Below are positions 12,001 to 64,000 of a DNA stretch of 64,000 nucleotides, piece by piece. The DNA comes from an uncultured bacterium (GTDB lineage: Bacteria > Babelota > Babeliae > Babelales > Babelaceae), in contig OY970209.1 in the NCBI GenBank assembly GCA_963713855.1, positions 1,088,001 to 1,152,000 on the forward strand. Reading direction: 5' to 3'. The stretch's first letter is position 1, and each line of letters opens with the position of its first letter. Made by a program: the position numbers.

Positions 12001-15000
12001 GTCGAAAAATATTTCTTCAATACTTTATCTTCAAAATAGGTCATGAGTTTAAGCTTAATTGGCCTAAAGCCCTTATCAGTATCTTCATCAACGAGCTTAT
12101 TGATGGCATCAGTATCTTCTTCGGTAAAATCTTCTTGTGAAAGAGCGAGTTCTGCCTGCTCATGAAGCTGTAATACTGATGGAAAGAGTTCTTTCCACAC
12201 AGCAGTTTTTTTGTATTCTTTTTCGTAGCCAGCAAAAGGAACAACATGGAGGCGACTAAGCAGAGCGTCATCTGTAACAACCGTTTTTCCTCCTAAAACG
12301 ATTCCAAGATGTCCAATATAGACATCGGCCCTTAAATAAGGGCTATAAAAAGTACTGGTTTCTGATTCAAGCAAGGTGAGAATAAAGGACAAGAGGTCAC
12401 TATTTGCTTCATTTAACAATATTCTATCTGCATCATCAATCAGTAAGATCATATTAGCCGCTTTTTGAGCCGTGTCTTTAGTAAGCGCATTAATCAAGAT
12501 ACCCGGATCATCATAATCTCCAATAAGCTTATGCATGTCCACGTTTGCTAAAGAAATAACTGCAATCGGTAAGCCAAGCGCCTCAGCTACCATTTTTGCA
12601 GCTCTCGTTTTGCCCACACCTGGTTCACCATAAAAATATGCTGCAATTTTACGCACTGCTGTAGCAGTTGAAGCAGCTGCATGCCGAATACAATACCGCT
12701 TGAGCTCGAGCGTTGTTTGCGGGCTATAACCTTGCAAGACGGCGTCAATTCGCTCACTGTCGTACACAATTTTATGATTTTCAAAGGGCAATTTAAGTAT
12801 CGTTTCAATAATTTTGATGTCATGTTCACGTGGCCCTGGATGTGGTGAACAGCGCACGGATACAAAATGTTTCTCAACGACACGTTGAAGCTCGAGTTGT
12901 ATGCGAGGCTTAGATCTAACGTACGTAATTTCTAGTCGATCGAGCTCACTTTTTGATCCTTGAGATAAATAAACCTGCTTAATGGAATCTATGAGGGATA
13001 CTAACTTGCTTATGGGCTCAGAACTGGCGTATGTCAAAAGCTGCCCAAGAGCAGCTCCGCTTCCAAGACCTACCGCCATGGGAACTTTATCAAGGAGATT
13101 ACTATATCGGTAAAGCACAAGAGCAGCTGGCAGAAAAGGTATAGCGTAGATCGCTGAATCTGTTATAGTCCACAAAGCACCAAAAATGCGCCTGTATTGA
13201 AAGTGCGTTTCTAGCATGTCTTGCTGAGTTTCTTCGTCCGCTTCTTGAAATGCCTCCGCCGCTATTAGTGCTGACTGATCGAAAAGATCGTAATTTTTTT
13301 GGCAATAAGCAGGAGAGAAATCCTGATTCATGGCCTCGATTTGATTGTTGATGAAGCACCCAAATAAGAGGACGAGAAAATATTTTTTCATGTTGATTTG
13401 TATAGGTTTCACGAATATCTTACCTCTATTTCTCAGTTTATAAATATTATATTTCTGAATAAAAAAATGTAAAGTGCTCTTCTTGAGAAAACCAAATGAA
13501 AAAACTCACGCAGCCTGAAGTGTGACCGGCATCAAAATGCGCGCATGGTCCGGATCAACTTCTCGCTTGTCTTCATAAAGAAAACATGTTAATTTTCTAG
13601 CGCCTTTATAAGAGCATTGTTGCTTTCTTAAATTAATAAGGTTGAGAAAAAGGTCATCTATAAAAAGTCGAGTTTTATATGCAGTTCATGATATTGCTGG
13701 GCCTATTATTGTGTTTTGTGGTCACAAGAATGGAATCAAATAGTAGTTGCTCGTTACAGCCGGGTGTCAATTATCCCTTTCCTGGTTCTTCAGTACCTAC
13801 TTTAGTGGCATTTTCACCGTCAGGCAACTATCTTGCGACTGCCAATGGTGCTTCGAATGATGTTACTCTATTTACGGTAGGAGCCGGGGGAGTATTGGAT
13901 GCTGGTACCACCACTGCTTTACCATCTGGTTCTACACAAGCTATTTCAGTAGCATTCTCACCGTCGGGTAATTATCTTGCTACCGCTAATTATTCTTCAA
14001 ATGATGTAACAGTATTTACCGTAGGGGCTGGAGGCGTTCTGAGTGGGGCGGCATCGTACGCTTTACCAGTGGGTTCTATTAATCCTTTTTCTGTGGCATT
14101 TTCACCTGATGGCTTATATCTTGCAGTGGCAATCGCTAACTCGAATGATGTAGCTATATTTTCAGTAGGCGTTGGTGGAGCATTGAGCGGCGTGACACCC
14201 TACGCTTTACCCCCTGGCTCTACGGGACCTTCTTCAGTGGCATTTTCACCATCAGGCAATTATCTGACCACCGCGAATTCAGGTTCAAATGATGTGACCG
14301 TATTTACGGTAGGATTAGGCGGTGCTTTGAGCGGAGGGTTAAGCTATGCTTTGCCTCCTGGTTCTACAATACCTTCTTCAGTCGTATTTTCCCCATCAGG
14401 CAATTATCTTGCTACTGCTAATTATGGTAATGCCAGTGGTACTACAGTAACGCTATTTCAAGTGGGAGCAGGAGGAGTATTAAGCGGAGGAGTAAGCTCC
14501 GCTTTACCTTCTGGCTCTACAGGGCCTATTTCAGTAGCATTTTCACCGTCGGGTAATTATCTTGCTACTGCTAATTATGCTTCACATGATGTAACCGTGT
14601 TTACCTTAAGTGCAGGAGGAACTTTAAGCACTGGCATATCTTATATTTTGCCTTCGGGTTCTTCTAATCCTCAGTCAGTGGCATTTTCACCATCAGGCAA
14701 TTATTTTGTAACTGTTGATGGTGGCGTAGGTATTCACGTAACAGTATTTATCCTGAATTGTTCAGCAAGCCCAACGATAGTAGGTACTTCCTATCCTTTG
14801 CCCACTGGTTCTCGTGAGCCTCATTCAATAGCTATTTCAAAGAATGGTTTATTTTTGGCAACAGGCAATTACAATTCAAGCGATGTAACGCTATTTTCAG
14901 TAGGTAATGATGACACACTCAGTAGCGCCGCCTCATTCTCGTTACCACTGGGTTCATTGGCACCGGCGAGTATTGCCTTTTCATATGACACATCATACGT

Positions 15001-63000: not shown

Positions 63001-64000
63001 ATCCGGTTCATCATACCCGTCTTCAGTTACTTTTTCGCTTGATAACGCATATGTTGCAACAGCCAATAGCTACTCAAATGATGTCACTCTCTTTAAGGTA
63101 GTAGGAGGAAAGTTAACAGGAGGAATCTCATACGCATTACCTAAGAACTCTACCAACCCAGTTTGGGCAACCTTCTCGCCCGATGATTCTTATCTGGCCG
63201 TAGCCAATTATAAGTCAAACGACGTAACCATATTTAACGTTGCCGTAGGATTATTATCTGGACCAATTTCCTACAGATTACCTGCGGGATCATTAGAGCC
63301 TGTATCACTAGCCTTTGCACCTAATGGTACCCATCTTGCTACTGCCAATGTCAATTCAAGTGACGTGACACTCTTTAAAGTAACAAATGGTGTGTTAAGC
63401 AGTGGCATTTCTTACTCCTTACCCACCGGATCTACGCAACCTCGATCAATCCTCTTTTTGCCCATTTCTGGTGGTGATTTACTCGTTGCTACAGCCAATA
63501 GTGGTTCAGATGATGTGACAACCTTCAGCGTACAAGGAGGCATCCTAAACACGGGTAATTCGTATCCATTACCCCCGGGCGCTTTTAATCCCCTATCATT
63601 GGCCTCCTCATCAGATGGCGCCTACCTTGCTACTGCTAATAGTGGCTCTAACAGTATCACGGTCTTTACTGTTAACGCGGGTATATTAGATCAAGGTACA
63701 TCTTATTCTTTGCCCATTAACTCGAGCGACTGCGTGGCAGTAGACTTTTCGCCAAATGAAACTTATGTTGTTACTGCCAATTTTGATTCAAATGACGTGT
63801 CGCTCATTCCGATCTTGAGCAGAGGTAATGGAATTTCAAGTGAGGGCAGTAGTAGCGATAGTCTTCCGATTGGTGTTATCATAGGAACAACTGTGGGAAT
63901 TCCTCTAGGCCTTGGGGCAACAGCATTAGGAACAAGCATCGTCGGTTTTTTGGTATATAAGTACTTGCACAAGCATCACCATCTAGCTAGCAATGTTAAT

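What a model noticed while it worked through the whole genome (the two positions that open the first line are those of the whole stretch)
13679..64000. Genus-restricted 74-gene family of membrane-anchored tandem 7-bladed propeller proteins (9% of the genome)
74 paralogous genes (47,252 aa; 9.3% of the genome) encode a signal peptide plus one to four 7-bladed propellers built from a ~48-aa repeat ([sequence left out]), giving size classes of ~400, ~760, ~1100 and 1420 aa. About 46 copies end in a shared module: GDGSxxPxGxIxGTTVGxP + TM helix + tail YKYxHRHxxGSVNFxGxExxxTL-COOH; shorter members end in a Thr/Ser-rich stretch. The densest array (about 20 genes) lies at C1:1.10-1.16 Mb, next to the replication terminus. 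The C-terminal module occurs only in this genus: a recent lineage-specific surface-protein expansion.
Evidence so far: blastp single-linkage cluster of 74 genes, 47,252 aa; termini listed. 13-paralogue alignment shows 14 repeats split by a Cys-containing linker. AF2 model of g00706: two 7-bladed propellers (res 30-360, 370-702, blocks pLDDT ~90), helix 732-755; PDB matches generic double propellers, best 2ymu_A. HMM of the 60-aa C-terminal module: 46 matches here, 33 in congener G009, 0 in 3 other Babelaceae by handle, 0 plus one marginal (E 1e-4) in 80 sampled Babelales. The finding spans contig positions 1101679 to 1161745; this window holds only 1101679 to 1152000 of it.
(Added by a program. 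Inside this text positions count along the whole contig: contig position 1,088,001 is position 1 of the stretch shown here. "Call 12" and the like, gene names such as g00115 and contig names such as C1 are that model's own, and its searches are not shown. The text may have been shortened before it was handed on; [...] marks where a part breaks off. The agent that wrote the report below was given it as the finding of a first reader that could run no searches.)

Follow-up and report, generated by a model that had tools for sequence, protein, structure and literature searches.

The report
Propeller protein family with amoeba-like anchor
A tiny amoeba-dependent bacterium spends about a tenth of its genome on some 75 related proteins built from stacked propeller domains, and most of them end in a membrane anchor and tail that look copied from membrane proteins of Acanthamoeba-type amoebae, which points to its likely host and to host mimicry.

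Summary
The genome has 82 ORFs with 855 copies of a 48-aa blade (9.6% of the genome), in sets of 7, 14, 21 or 28, and 16 near-complete genes lie at 1.10-1.16 Mb beside the GC-skew terminus.

Three findings are new:
- The C-terminal module is restricted to this genus among the prokaryotic genomes searched, but it is not unique. A scan of 1.84 billion proteins, a reciprocal HMM and hhalign (98%, E 4.5e-14) show the same layout in a eukaryotic type I membrane-protein family. That layout is a G-rich stalk, a GxIxGxxVxxP TM helix, a basic stretch, [ST]VNF, an acidic stretch and L-COOH. The family includes ACA1_367650 of Acanthamoeba castellanii.
- The propeller family itself also occurs in another genus, without this module.
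- A covarying Cys pair brackets the N-terminal unit of one to three propellers.

Best reading: Sec-exported, membrane-anchored binding proteins at the host interface, whose anchor was probably captured from an amoebal host. Localisation, expression and tail function are untested.

The parts
13679..15967 (+). 762-aa member: signal peptide, 14 blades (2 propellers), Cys pair (N-terminal Cys + Cys at end of blade 7), full C-terminal module ending ...SVNYGTDSTDTL
   Evidence: (PF10282 E 6.7e-44)
16074..16328 (+). 84-aa ORF with one blade: remnant of a family member
16359..19664 (-). 1101-aa member: 21 blades (3 propellers), class without the Cys pair (mature start ...ALSEISYPLPG), variant module ...NNDLAIILATTL...YKHVHRPRTSLGSVNYGPEEEL
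   Evidence: (E 9.5e-63)
19931..21523 (-). 530-aa ORF with 9 blades, truncated at its 5' end; TM present, tail stops right after VNF; probably a broken copy
   Evidence: 1 stop in the six-frame match
21577..21789 (-). 70-aa ORF with one blade, upstream remnant of the broken copy
22173..25526 (+). 1117-aa member: 21 blades, class without Cys pair, module ending at ...SMVNY
26042..28546 (-). 834-aa ORF (likely true start at the internal Met that begins MKLALIYF, about window 28318): 14 blades, Cys pair, full module ...GTVNFGEEAQL
28641..32018 (-). 1125-aa member: 21 blades, N-terminal Cys paired with a Cys at the end of blade 14, full module ...GSVNFAGKESMETL
32133..32384 (-). 83-aa ORF holding only a remnant of the stalk + TM part of the module
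32504..34777 (+). 757-aa member: 13-14 blades, N-terminal Cys, Cys/Ser-rich stretch and short amphipathic C-terminus instead of the TM module (second type of C-terminus)
34841..38173 (+). 1110-aa member: 21 blades, class without Cys pair, TM module with short variant tail ...YKHRTSLDSVSL
38413..40698 (+). 761-aa member: 14 blades, Cys pair, stalk + TM present but divergent tail without VNF
40911..44183 (+). 1090-aa member: 21 blades, N-terminal Cys paired with Cys at the end of blade 14, full module ...SVNYSGPESTDTL
   Evidence: (E 1e-74)
50838..53174 (-). 778-aa ORF (exemplar, modelled): 14 blades in two 7-bladed propellers, invariant Cys39/Cys371, full module
50841..51050 (-). C-terminal module of the exemplar (last 70 aa): G-rich stalk, GxIxGxxVGxP glycine-zipper TM helix, YKY + basic stretch, GSVNF, acidic stretch, TL-COOH; first row of profile A1
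53485..55788 (-). 767-aa member: 14 blades, Cys pair, full module ...GTINFHGDESLRSTPL
56132..59470 (-). 1112-aa member: 21 blades, class without Cys pair, variant module ...GSVNIGPDTTDSL
60106..60345 (+). 79-aa ORF holding only a module remnant (stalk + TM + degenerate tail)
62315..64000 (+). 572-aa member that runs 33 bases past the window end: only 3 blades before the linker Cys, then the 7-blade membrane-proximal propeller and full module; N-terminal unit too short for a propeller

Best explanation
This is a lineage-amplified family of Sec-exported, C-terminally membrane-anchored binding proteins built from tandem PF10282-type 7-bladed beta-propellers.

Shown:
- Each protein has an N-terminal hydrophobic signal segment.
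- It then has a variable unit of one, two or three propellers. In about two thirds of intact members this unit is bracketed by a covarying Cys pair: residue 2 of the predicted mature protein, and a Cys at the very end of that unit.
- Next come a more conserved membrane-proximal propeller, a Gly-rich stalk and one TM helix carrying a GxIxGxxVGxP glycine zipper.
- The protein ends in a 25-30-aa tail with YKY, basic residues, [ST]VNF, acidic residues and a terminal Leu.
- This stalk-TM-tail module is specifically and reciprocally similar to the C-terminal anchor of a eukaryotic type I membrane-glycoprotein family that includes Acanthamoeba castellanii ACA1_367650.

Inferred:
- An ancestor of this genus already had the propeller family with a Thr/Ser-rich C-terminus, as in genus g8.
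- It captured the anchor from an amoebal host.
- The anchored subfamily then expanded and diversified separately in each species.
- The proteins act as a diversified set of binding surfaces at the bacterium-host interface, not as lactonases.
- The conserved tail is kept because something reads it, most simply the host machinery that reads it on the amoebal proteins.

Where the proteins end up is not shown. It could be the bacterial inner membrane with propellers in the periplasm, the bacterial surface, or a host membrane.
For: Family and architecture:
- All 14 large window ORFs match PF10282 (E 6e-31 to 1e-74, cut-off 21.7 bits).
- Blades come in multiples of 7: 855 blades in 82 ORFs.
- The AF2 model has two 28-strand blocks and a TM helix. 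Its best PDB matches are double propellers.

Cys pair:
- Of 46 intact proteins, 29 have both Cys, 13 have neither, 2 have only the N-terminal Cys and 2 have only the linker Cys.
- C39 and C371 are invariant in 11 two-propeller paralogues.

Module conservation in 61 copies from both species: I 59/61, G 55, G 55, P 45, Y 53, K 47, Y 55, V 51, N 49, F 40 (+Y 10), L 37.

Link to amoebal proteins:
- The bacterial module profile was scored against 1,835,955,588 proteins and gave 56 hits at E<=1e-3. By eye, 14 are propeller-bearing, 37 have the amoebal layout (22 of them keep the YDP ectodomain motif) and 5 are other eukaryote-like TM proteins.
- An HMM built only from 35 amoebal-type C-termini hit 39 of 3,510 G000 ORFs at E<=10. 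All 39 are module-bearing family members. 35 have E<=1e-3, the best is 2.7e-13, and reversed ORFs gave 0 hits.
- hhalign of the bacterial against the amoebal module profile gave 98.2%, E 4.5e-14 over 60 columns. Against the named Acanthamoeba protein alone it gave 92.7%, E 4.2e-7, at its residues 566-625 of 631.
- Tail geometry matches. [VI]N[FY] is present in 28/43 bacterial and 29/35 amoebal tails, and in 0/77 other G000 ORFs with a C-terminal TM. The median distance from TM end to motif is 19.5 against 20. The median distance from motif to C-terminus is 9 against 9. The last residue is Leu in 29/43 against 34/35.

The comparators are eukaryotic:
- One is named ACA1_367650 [Acanthamoeba castellanii str. 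Neff].
- P0184 reads through two short insertions relative to P0183.
- The 62%-GC contig L054 has exons in different frames and an 86-nt GT..AG intron.

Order of events:
- G008 has the propeller family with a Thr/Ser-rich end and no module.
- Paralogues cluster by species.

Setting:
- The array sits among secreted ankyrin-repeat proteins and a galaxin-like protein.
- The genome has Omp85 and two secretins. This agrees with the type II secretion system with two gspD copies reported for the phylum (PMC4776705, passages seen).
I did not check it.
Against: - No expression, localisation or binding data exist. No sequencing run was listed.
- The bacterium is diderm (Omp85 and secretins found). A signal peptide plus a stop-transfer TM helix of ordinary hydrophobicity (KD19 2.20 against a genome median of 1.97) should leave the proteins in the inner membrane. 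The propellers would then face the periplasm and the tail the bacterial cytoplasm, where a host-type tail has no obvious reader.
- No DsbA-type oxidoreductase was found with PF01323 or PF13462, so who forms the proposed disulfide is open.
- The direction of transfer is inferred only from distribution: one bacterial genus against many diverged eukaryotic clusters. A 60-70-aa module cannot be rooted.
- The module is partly low-complexity (Gly-rich, hydrophobic), which can inflate profile scores, although the reciprocal and reversed controls argue against that.
- Overall identity in the tail (36%) is not higher than in the propeller (50%). Only motif positions are conserved.
- The active site of PF10282 enzymes was not examined.
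Confidence: 0.55

Rival explanations
1. The proteins are purely bacterial envelope proteins. They stay in the inner membrane with the propellers in the periplasm, for example as scaffolds or chaperone-like binders. The tail binds a bacterial cytoplasmic partner. The likeness to amoebal proteins reflects transfer from bacterium to amoeba, or convergence.
For: - The topology expected from a Sec signal plus a TM helix of normal hydrophobicity with a basic tail fits this.
- The genome is diderm.
- No VirB4 was found.
- Acanthamoeba is known to carry genes of bacterial origin (recalled; only the search listing of PMC13305018 was seen).
Against: - About 75 diverging paralogues taking 9.6% of a 1.5-Mb reduced genome is the pattern of host-facing families, not of periplasmic housekeeping.
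- The module is in one bacterial genus of 37 genera searched, but in at least 37 diverged eukaryotic clusters carrying other ectodomains and introns.
- Five ordered elements with the same spacing are unlikely to arise by convergence.
Confidence: 0.2
2. The C-terminal module is a prokaryotic sorting signal of the LPXTG, PEP-CTERM or GlyGly-CTERM kind. A dedicated enzyme would cut at the Gly-rich stalk and attach or release the propellers at the cell surface.
For: - The layout of motif, then TM helix, then basic cluster near the C-terminus resembles those signals.
- It is many-to-one: 43-47 copies share one module.
- The helix-breaking Gly and Pro in the TM resemble rhomboid substrates (recalled).
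Against: - No rhomboid, exosortase or sortase was found in the genome.
- No NCBIfam sorting-signal model matched 12 modules at E<=1; all hits were noise.
- The module goes on for about 20 conserved residues after the basic cluster, which known signals do not.
- The same module sits on eukaryotic proteins.
Confidence: 0.08
3. The genes encode enzymes: lactonases or lyases of the PF10282 / Vgb type acting on host or environmental substrates.
For: - PF10282 and PF24684 matches are above their cut-offs.
- JGI names many homologues 6-phosphogluconolactonase.
Against: - The NCBIfam 6-phosphogluconolactonase equivalogs are far below their cut-offs (63-79 bits against 370-500).
- The blades are near-idealised repeats, 42% identical to each other in the N-terminal units.
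- There are up to four propellers per chain and about 75 paralogues, which fits scaffolds rather than active sites.
Confidence: 0.03

Closest known systems
Pfam PF10282 'Lactonase, 7-bladed beta-propeller' proteins, including multidomain 'beta-propeller fold lactonase family' proteins of other bacteria
   Same: The same blade family, with HMM matches well above the cut-off, 7 blades per propeller and about 48 aa per blade. Many homologues are also exported multidomain proteins with PKD or Ig-like domains.
   Different: Here there are 1-4 propellers in tandem, a Cys pair around the N-terminal unit, a eukaryote-like TM anchor, and about 75 copies in one small genome. They fall far below the cut-offs of the true 6-phosphogluconolactonase equivalogs.
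2ymu, 'highly repetitive propeller structure', and Aip1-type double WD40 propellers (1nr0)
   Same: These are the best structural matches: two consecutive 7-bladed propellers made of near-identical blades.
   Different: Sequence identity is 11-25% among the rows listed. Those proteins are cytosolic and have no signal peptide, TM anchor or tail. That the N-terminal strand closes the last blade of the double unit in Aip1 is recalled, not tested here.
ACA1_367650 of Acanthamoeba castellanii and its relatives from metagenomes (P0010-P0056 in part, P0183-P0188)
   Same: The C-terminal 60-70 aa have the same order and spacing: LLG, G-rich stalk, GxIxGxxVxxP TM helix, basic stretch, [ST]VNF, acidic stretch, L-COOH. 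hhalign gave 98.2% and the HMM hits are reciprocal and specific.
   Different: The ectodomain is unrelated: RCC1 repeats and a beta-supersandwich with the motif FDVALVDG...YDPSxGLG. The genes have introns and 62% GC. The amoebal TM helix is more hydrophobic (KD19 3.11 against 2.20) and its juxtamembrane stretch is W(R/K)RR rather than YKYxHRH.
Large polymorphic envelope families of obligate intracellular bacteria, such as chlamydial Pmp autotransporters and Anaplasma Msp2/P44 (recalled)
   Same: One repeat-built family is amplified to many diverging paralogues in a reduced genome. Copies are clustered and some are decayed.
   Different: There is no autotransporter beta-barrel; the C-terminus is one helix. 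The fold is different. No sign of phase-variation tracts was seen. The hosts are protists without adaptive immunity.
Bacterial effectors that carry eukaryotic domains or sorting motifs, such as ankyrin, F-box and U-box proteins of amoeba symbionts and Coxiella CvpA with endocytic motifs (recalled; ankyrin and WD40 in TM6 are named in PMC4776705 and PMC6561590, passages seen)
   Same: Host-like sequence elements in a bacterium that depends on amoebae. The array lies among ankyrin-repeat proteins.
   Different: What is host-like here is a whole type I anchor (stalk, TM helix and cytosolic tail). It is fused to a bacterial ectodomain behind a Sec signal and copied more than 40 times. No delivery route into a host membrane is known.
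C-terminal sorting signals of prokaryotes (LPXTG/sortase, PEP-CTERM/exosortase, GlyGly-CTERM/rhombosortase)
   Same: A short motif, then a TM helix, then basic residues at the C-terminus of many paralogous exported proteins.
   Different: No cognate enzyme and no model match were found. A conserved tail of about 20 aa follows the basic residues.

Membership tests
PF10282 lactonase-type 7-bladed beta-propeller | Match to the family HMM above the gathering cut-off (21.7 bits) | tested here: met
   14 of 14 large window ORFs scored 108-252 bits, and PF10282 was the best family in each
PF10282 lactonase-type 7-bladed beta-propeller | Seven four-stranded blades per propeller | tested here: met
   Blade counts are 7, 14, 21 or 28. 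The AF2 model has two blocks of 28 strands
6-phosphogluconolactonase (NCBIfam NF008258 / NF050136 equivalogs) | Score above the equivalog cut-off (370 / 500 bits) | tested here: not met
   36-79 bits in 5 of 5 proteins scanned
6-phosphogluconolactonase (NCBIfam NF008258 / NF050136 equivalogs) | Conserved catalytic residues and lactonase activity | not tested
   No residue-level comparison with a characterised enzyme was made
Prokaryotic C-terminal sorting signals (sortase, exosortase, rhombosortase systems) | Cognate sorting enzyme encoded in the genome | tested here: not met
   PF04203, PF09721 and PF01694 each gave 0 matches in the 1.52-Mb genome (91% complete by markers), while the control genomes matched
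Prokaryotic C-terminal sorting signals (sortase, exosortase, rhombosortase systems) | Match to a curated signal model; the signal ends shortly after the basic cluster | tested here: not met
   12 modules against NCBIfam at E<=1 gave only noise. The tail continues about 20 aa beyond the basic residues
Anchor module of the Acanthamoeba-type type I membrane-glycoprotein family (ACA1_367650-like) | Profile-level similarity over stalk, TM helix and tail, specific in both directions | tested here: met
   hhalign gave 98.2%, E 4.5e-14 and 92.7% against ACA1_367650. The amoebal HMM hit 39 G000 ORFs, all family members, and 0 reversed ORFs
Anchor module of the Acanthamoeba-type type I membrane-glycoprotein family (ACA1_367650-like) | Same motif order and spacing in the tail ([VI]N[FY] about 20 aa after the TM core, about 9 aa before a terminal Leu) | tested here: met
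   Medians are 19.5 against 20 and 9 against 9. Terminal Leu occurs in 29/43 against 34/35. 0/77 other G000 ORFs with a C-terminal TM have the motif
Anchor module of the Acanthamoeba-type type I membrane-glycoprotein family (ACA1_367650-like) | Shared ectodomain (supersandwich with FDVALVDG / YDPSxGLG) | tested here: not met
   The bacterial proteins have propellers up to the stalk. Only the module is shared, so they are not members of that family
Autotransporter / Pmp-like polymorphic outer-membrane proteins | C-terminal beta-barrel translocator | tested here: not met
   The C-terminus is one predicted helix (741-763) plus a disordered tail. No autotransporter family appeared in the Pfam scan

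The most novel reading that the evidence does not exclude
The anchored propeller proteins leave the bacterium and sit in a host-derived membrane, either the phagosome or the replication-vacuole membrane. There they adopt the topology of a host type I protein, with the propellers in the lumen and the tail in the amoebal cytosol. The captured VNF...L-COOH tail is read by the amoeba's own sorting machinery. With some 45 different propeller heads on one host-type anchor, the bacterium would re-address or decorate its compartment. This would be membrane-protein mimicry across kingdoms by Sec-dependent, TM-anchored effectors. It would also reveal a so far undescribed sorting signal of amoebal membrane proteins and predict an Acanthamoeba-type host.
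Probability: 0.22. Interest if true: 0.92.

Novelty: new variant of a known kind. Interest (0 to 1): 0.75.

Why it matters
Dependentiae (TM6) are widespread, almost entirely uncultured parasites of protists, and how they deal with their hosts is largely unknown.

- This family is the largest single investment of this genome.
- Its anchor gives a concrete, testable link to a host group, Acanthamoeba-type amoebae. It offers a candidate mechanism, a host-derived anchor and tail, that can be tested with peptides, reporter fusions and microscopy.
- It points to a conserved, undescribed tail motif in a family of amoebal type I membrane proteins.
- The Cys-bracketed unit of one to three propellers is a neat case of modular propeller architecture for structural work.

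My four literature searches found no paper describing this (Dependentiae + beta-propeller).

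Tried and rejected
- Known sorting systems. No rhomboid, exosortase or sortase was found in the genome, and no NCBIfam signal model matched.
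- VirB4-type type IV secretion: not found. LpxC: not found.
- DsbA-type oxidoreductases (PF13462, PF01323): not found.
- GLMP/NCU-G1 lead. The Atlas structure search put a lysosomal membrane protein family (GLMP/NCU-G1) near the amoebal ectodomain at TM 0.55. A Pfam scan of 7 amoebal proteins at E<=1 did not show that family. Foldseek of my own model gave only weak supersandwich matches, best E 7e-3. The lead is dropped.
- The Atlas search with P0011 gave no usable hit.
- The search with alignment A4 (second C-terminus type) was badly designed. The alignment included part of a blade, so it hit every blade. Only the full-length matches are usable: about 13 in G000 and 3 in G001.
The same scan with one whole protein returned only an unrelated Bifidobacteriaceae locus, so I cannot name the genus.
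- Sequencing runs: none was listed and no RNA holder was listed.
- Phase-variation tracts: the only homopolymers of 8 or more (A/T) or 7 or more (G/C) past window position 13000 are two A8 runs inside genes.
- My first automated Cys count was wrong because HMM envelopes swallowed the linker Cys. It was replaced.
- Housekeeping divergence between the two species. The uridine kinase query was not found in G001. A Ppx/GppA protein is only 31% identical. One protein is too little to date the split.
- I checked the tail by eye, from recalled consensus patterns, against PDZ class I/III, RVxF, clathrin box, gamma-ear and YxxPhi motifs. None fits consistently.

Full report
**What is in the window**

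The window is G000:C1:1088001-1152000 of a single-contig genome of 1,521,901 bp with 41.4% GC. From position 13679 to the end it holds 14 large ORFs of one family on both strands. Between them lie secreted ankyrin-repeat proteins and a Cys-rich protein with galaxin-like repeats. All 14 match Pfam PF10282, 'Lactonase, 7-bladed beta-propeller', at E 6e-31 to 1e-74. This is the best family in every case. The NCBIfam models for true 6-phosphogluconolactonases are matched at only 36-79 bits against cut-offs of 370-500.

**Size of the family**

- blastp with the 778-aa protein of window 50838-53174(-) against 3,510 ORFs of 60 aa or more found 77 ORFs with 47,974 aa.
- An HMM of the 48-aa blade (consensus LPSGSTNPQSVAFSPNGSYLATANSGSNDVTVFTVGAGGVLSGGTSYA) found 855 blades in 82 ORFs. 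That is 48,566 aa, or 9.6% of the genome. 58 ORFs have 6 or more blades (8.6%).
- Intact proteins have 7, 14, 21 or 28 blades.
- 20 ORFs, 16 of them with 6 or more blades, fill 73% of contig 1,101,679-1,161,811.
- Cumulative GC skew has its minimum near 390 kb and a maximum plateau at 1.10-1.20 Mb. The array lies at the terminus, and 54 of the 58 larger members lie between 0.6 and 1.5 Mb.

**Structure**

With an alignment of 11 two-propeller paralogues (A3), AlphaFold2 gave a mean pLDDT of 79.6. The model has two blocks of 28 strands (residues 40-370 and 378-706), a short low-confidence linker, a helix at 741-763 and a disordered tail. Foldseek against the PDB put 2ymu_A first (E 3.2e-31, 25% identity). 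Double WD40 propellers follow, including the Aip1 homologue 1nr0.

**A Cys pair brackets the N-terminal unit**

- In A3, C39 and C371 are invariant.
- Across 46 intact proteins, 29 have both a Cys 6-11 residues before blade 1 and a Cys at blade position 35-38 (55 in one outlier) of blade 7, 14 or 21. 13 have neither, 2 have only the N-terminal Cys and 2 have only the linker Cys.
- The second Cys always lies at the end of the penultimate propeller, or of the only one. That is blade 7 in 14-blade proteins, blade 14 in 21-blade proteins of this class and blade 21 in the 28-blade protein.
- I read this as a disulfide tying the N-terminal strand to the end of a unit of one, two or three propellers. 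A separate, more conserved membrane-proximal propeller follows.
- This rests on covariation only. I could not measure distances in the model, and no DsbA-type protein was found with two Pfam models.
- The 13 proteins without the pair include a distinct three-propeller class whose mature start is A(I/L)(S/T)E(V/I)SYxLPG.
- The N-terminal hydrophobic segment with Ala at position -2 from the Cys looks like a signal peptidase I site rather than a lipobox. This was read from the sequences, and no predictor was run.

**Two kinds of C-terminus**

- About 13 members, mostly single-propeller proteins, end in Cys + Thr/Ser-rich stretch + a short amphipathic end.
An HMM from 10 seeds found it in 43 ORFs.
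- In 61 copies from both species the conserved positions are G-D, G-x-I-x-G-T-T-V-G-x-P, Y-K-Y, R, S-V-N-F and a terminal L. For example I is present in 59/61, V in 51, N in 49 and F or Y in 50.
- Mean pairwise identity of the tail (36%) is not above that of the propeller (50%). What is conserved is the set of motif positions, not the whole tail.

**Distribution in prokaryotes**

- The module profile A1 gave 47 six-frame matches in G000 and 33 in the congener G001. It gave none in 23 other genomes of the same family and one marginal match (E 1.45e-3) in 16 genomes of other families of the order.
- PF10282 is more widespread. 13 of 41 genomes have matches, including 11 of 24 other genomes of the same family. 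Counts are 91 and 74 in the two species of this genus against 1-17 elsewhere.
- G008, a different genus with 17 matches, encodes a 795-aa protein with a signal peptide, N-terminal Cys, two propellers each followed by Cys + Thr/Ser-rich linker, and a short hydrophobic end. It is 39-42% identical to window 32504-34774 (E 8e-112).
- So the propeller family with the Thr/Ser-rich end is older than the genus. The TM module is the genus-specific addition.

**The module outside bacteria**

hmmsearch of A1 against 1,835,955,588 representative proteins gave 56 hits at E<=1e-3, 7 of them at E<=1e-10. I sorted them by eye:

- 14 carry propeller blades. These include fragments like those of this genus and one of the genome's own proteins.
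- 37 have another layout, described below.
- 5 are other eukaryote-like TM proteins.

The 37 share a beta-rich ectodomain with FDVALVDG and YDPSxGLGxLLG; the YDP motif is retained in 22 of them. It is followed by GGGSDN-x-GLI(I/V)GVAVAVPVAV, a TM helix, W(R/K)RR, (G)SVNF, acidic residues and a terminal Leu (alignments A2 and A5).

These 37 are eukaryotic:

- A search with one of them found ACA1_367650 of Acanthamoeba castellanii str. Neff (E 4.2e-34). This 631-aa protein has RCC1 repeats, the same ectodomain and the same C-terminus.
- P0184 carries two insertions of 37 and 30 aa relative to P0183.
- On the 62%-GC metagenome contig L054 the exons lie in different frames, and one 86-nt gap begins GT and ends AG.

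**Is the likeness more than a hydrophobic helix?**

- An HMM built from 35 amoebal-type C-termini alone hit 39 of the 3,510 G000 ORFs at E<=10. All 39 are module-bearing members of the family. 35 have E<=1e-3, the best is 2.7e-13, and none of the reversed ORFs was hit. The genome has 528 other ORFs with a TM-like segment, and none of them was hit.
- hhalign of the two module profiles gave 98.2% and E 4.5e-14 over 60 columns. Against the single Acanthamoeba protein it gave 92.7% and E 4.2e-7 at residues 566-625 of 631.
- The tails have the same geometry:

| Measure | Bacterial | Amoebal | Other G000 ORFs with a C-terminal TM |
|---|---|---|---|
| [VI]N[FY] in the tail | 28 of 43 | 29 of 35 | 0 of 77 |
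| Median distance, TM core to motif | 19.5 | 20 | - |
| Median distance, motif to C-terminus | 9 | 9 | - |
| Terminal Leu | 29 of 43 | 34 of 35 | - |
| TM hydrophobicity (KD19) | 2.20 | 3.11 | - |

- The bacterial juxtamembrane stretch is YKY + His/Arg rather than W(R/K)RR.

I conclude that the module is homologous in the two groups. Because it occurs in one bacterial genus but in many diverged eukaryotic clusters on intron-bearing genes, capture from an amoebal host is the simpler direction. A module this short cannot be rooted, so the direction is an inference.

**Evolution within the genus**

- Over the last 400 aa, G000 paralogues are 46% identical at the median and 76% at most.
- Most G000 copies are closer to another G000 copy than to any of 24 G001 copies. 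G001 has pairs at 80-95%.
- A few cross-species pairs are the closest of all, for example 77% for the broken copy at window 19931-21523.
- Decayed copies occur in the window (parts list).
- This is birth-and-death with separate expansions. It is lineage-specific, but in G000 it is not especially recent.

**How it may work**

The genome has Omp85 and two secretins but no LpxC. This matches what is written about the phylum: a type II secretion system with two gspD copies and loss of LPS in Babeliales (PMC4776705, passages seen). A related species has inner and outer membranes and apparent outer-membrane vesicles in food vacuoles (PMC6561590, passages seen).

A Sec signal plus a stop-transfer helix should put the propellers outside the cytoplasmic membrane and the basic tail inside. 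Beyond that nothing is shown.

I commit to the reading that these are diversified binding proteins of the bacterium-host interface on a host-derived anchor (confidence about 0.55). My reasons:

- the size and divergence of the family in a reduced genome;
- its company of secreted ankyrin proteins;
- the idealised, non-enzyme-like blades;
- the motif-level conservation of a host-type tail.

The boldest version is that the proteins reach a host membrane and their tails are read by the amoeba's sorting machinery. I put that at about 0.22, because no route out of the inner membrane is evident.

Rivals are listed with their evidence in the Rival explanations section: a purely periplasmic role with bacterium-to-amoeba transfer or convergence, a prokaryotic sorting signal, and enzymes. 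No sortase, exosortase or rhomboid was found, and no NCBIfam signal model matched.

**Limits**

- There is no expression or localisation evidence. No sequencing run was listed.
- The genus could not be named.
- The sorting of the 56 library hits into kinds was done by eye.
- The function of the VNF tail in amoebae is unknown. My four literature searches found no paper on this family or tail. For the other papers in those listings only titles and abstract starts were seen.
- The scan's notebook held nothing on this family.

Noticed in passing
window 49043-49915 (-): A 290-aa secreted, Cys-rich protein made of CCP...GQVYD-type repeats matches Pfam PF24748 'Galaxin-like repeats' (E 2.6e-10). That family is otherwise known from animals. 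It is another eukaryote-like protein inside the array.
   Followed up: no
window 44351-48981 (+) and 60640-61611 (+); also 3518-4261, 7096-8037, 9570-10229: Ankyrin-repeat proteins, several with an N-terminal hydrophobic segment, are interspersed with the propeller genes. By eye, the three at 44351-48981 and the one at 60640-61611 share a helical C-terminal half.
   Followed up: partly
window 11943-13412 (-): A 489-aa protein just upstream of the array has a signal-like N-terminus and an AAA ATPase domain (PF00004, E 8e-12).
   Followed up: no
L009 (G008:C7:3630-7367), ORF 1339-3726: Another genus of the same family has a 795-aa two-propeller protein with the same blades and Cys pattern. Long Thr/Ser-rich linkers follow each propeller, and there is no TM module. 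It probably shows the older form of the family.
   Followed up: partly
whole genome G000: No match to DsbA-type families PF01323 or PF13462, although about 30 exported proteins keep a covarying Cys pair. No LpxC, rhomboid, sortase, exosortase or VirB4 either. One Omp85 and two secretins are present.
   Followed up: partly
window 4411-5466 (+) against G001:C1:28255-29259: The Ppx/GppA-family protein is only 31% identical to its best match in the 'same genus' genome, and the uridine kinase of window 6306-6962 was not found there. The two species may be much further apart than 'congener' suggests.
   Followed up: no
last blade of the membrane-proximal propeller in many members (e.g. window genes 16359-19664, 34841-38173, 56132-59470): A further conserved single Cys sits at blade position 8 of the last blade (NS(S/T)xCV). 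It is present in 13 of the 14 three-propeller proteins that lack a boundary Cys near the blade core, and in several proteins with the pair. It has no obvious partner.
   Followed up: no
window 15217-15873 (-) and 57558-58079 (+): ORFs of 218 and 173 aa lie antisense inside family genes. They are most likely chance frames in this Gly/Ser/Thr-rich coding sequence.
   Followed up: no
P0188 residues 400-571 (Acanthamoeba ACA1_367650) and model m3e50efec68a9: The amoebal ectodomain folds as a beta-supersandwich. It gives weak matches to GH65 N-domains and the YidC periplasmic domain, and weak Pfam hits to the Dictyostelium ComC supersandwich domain. The family seems undescribed.
   Followed up: partly
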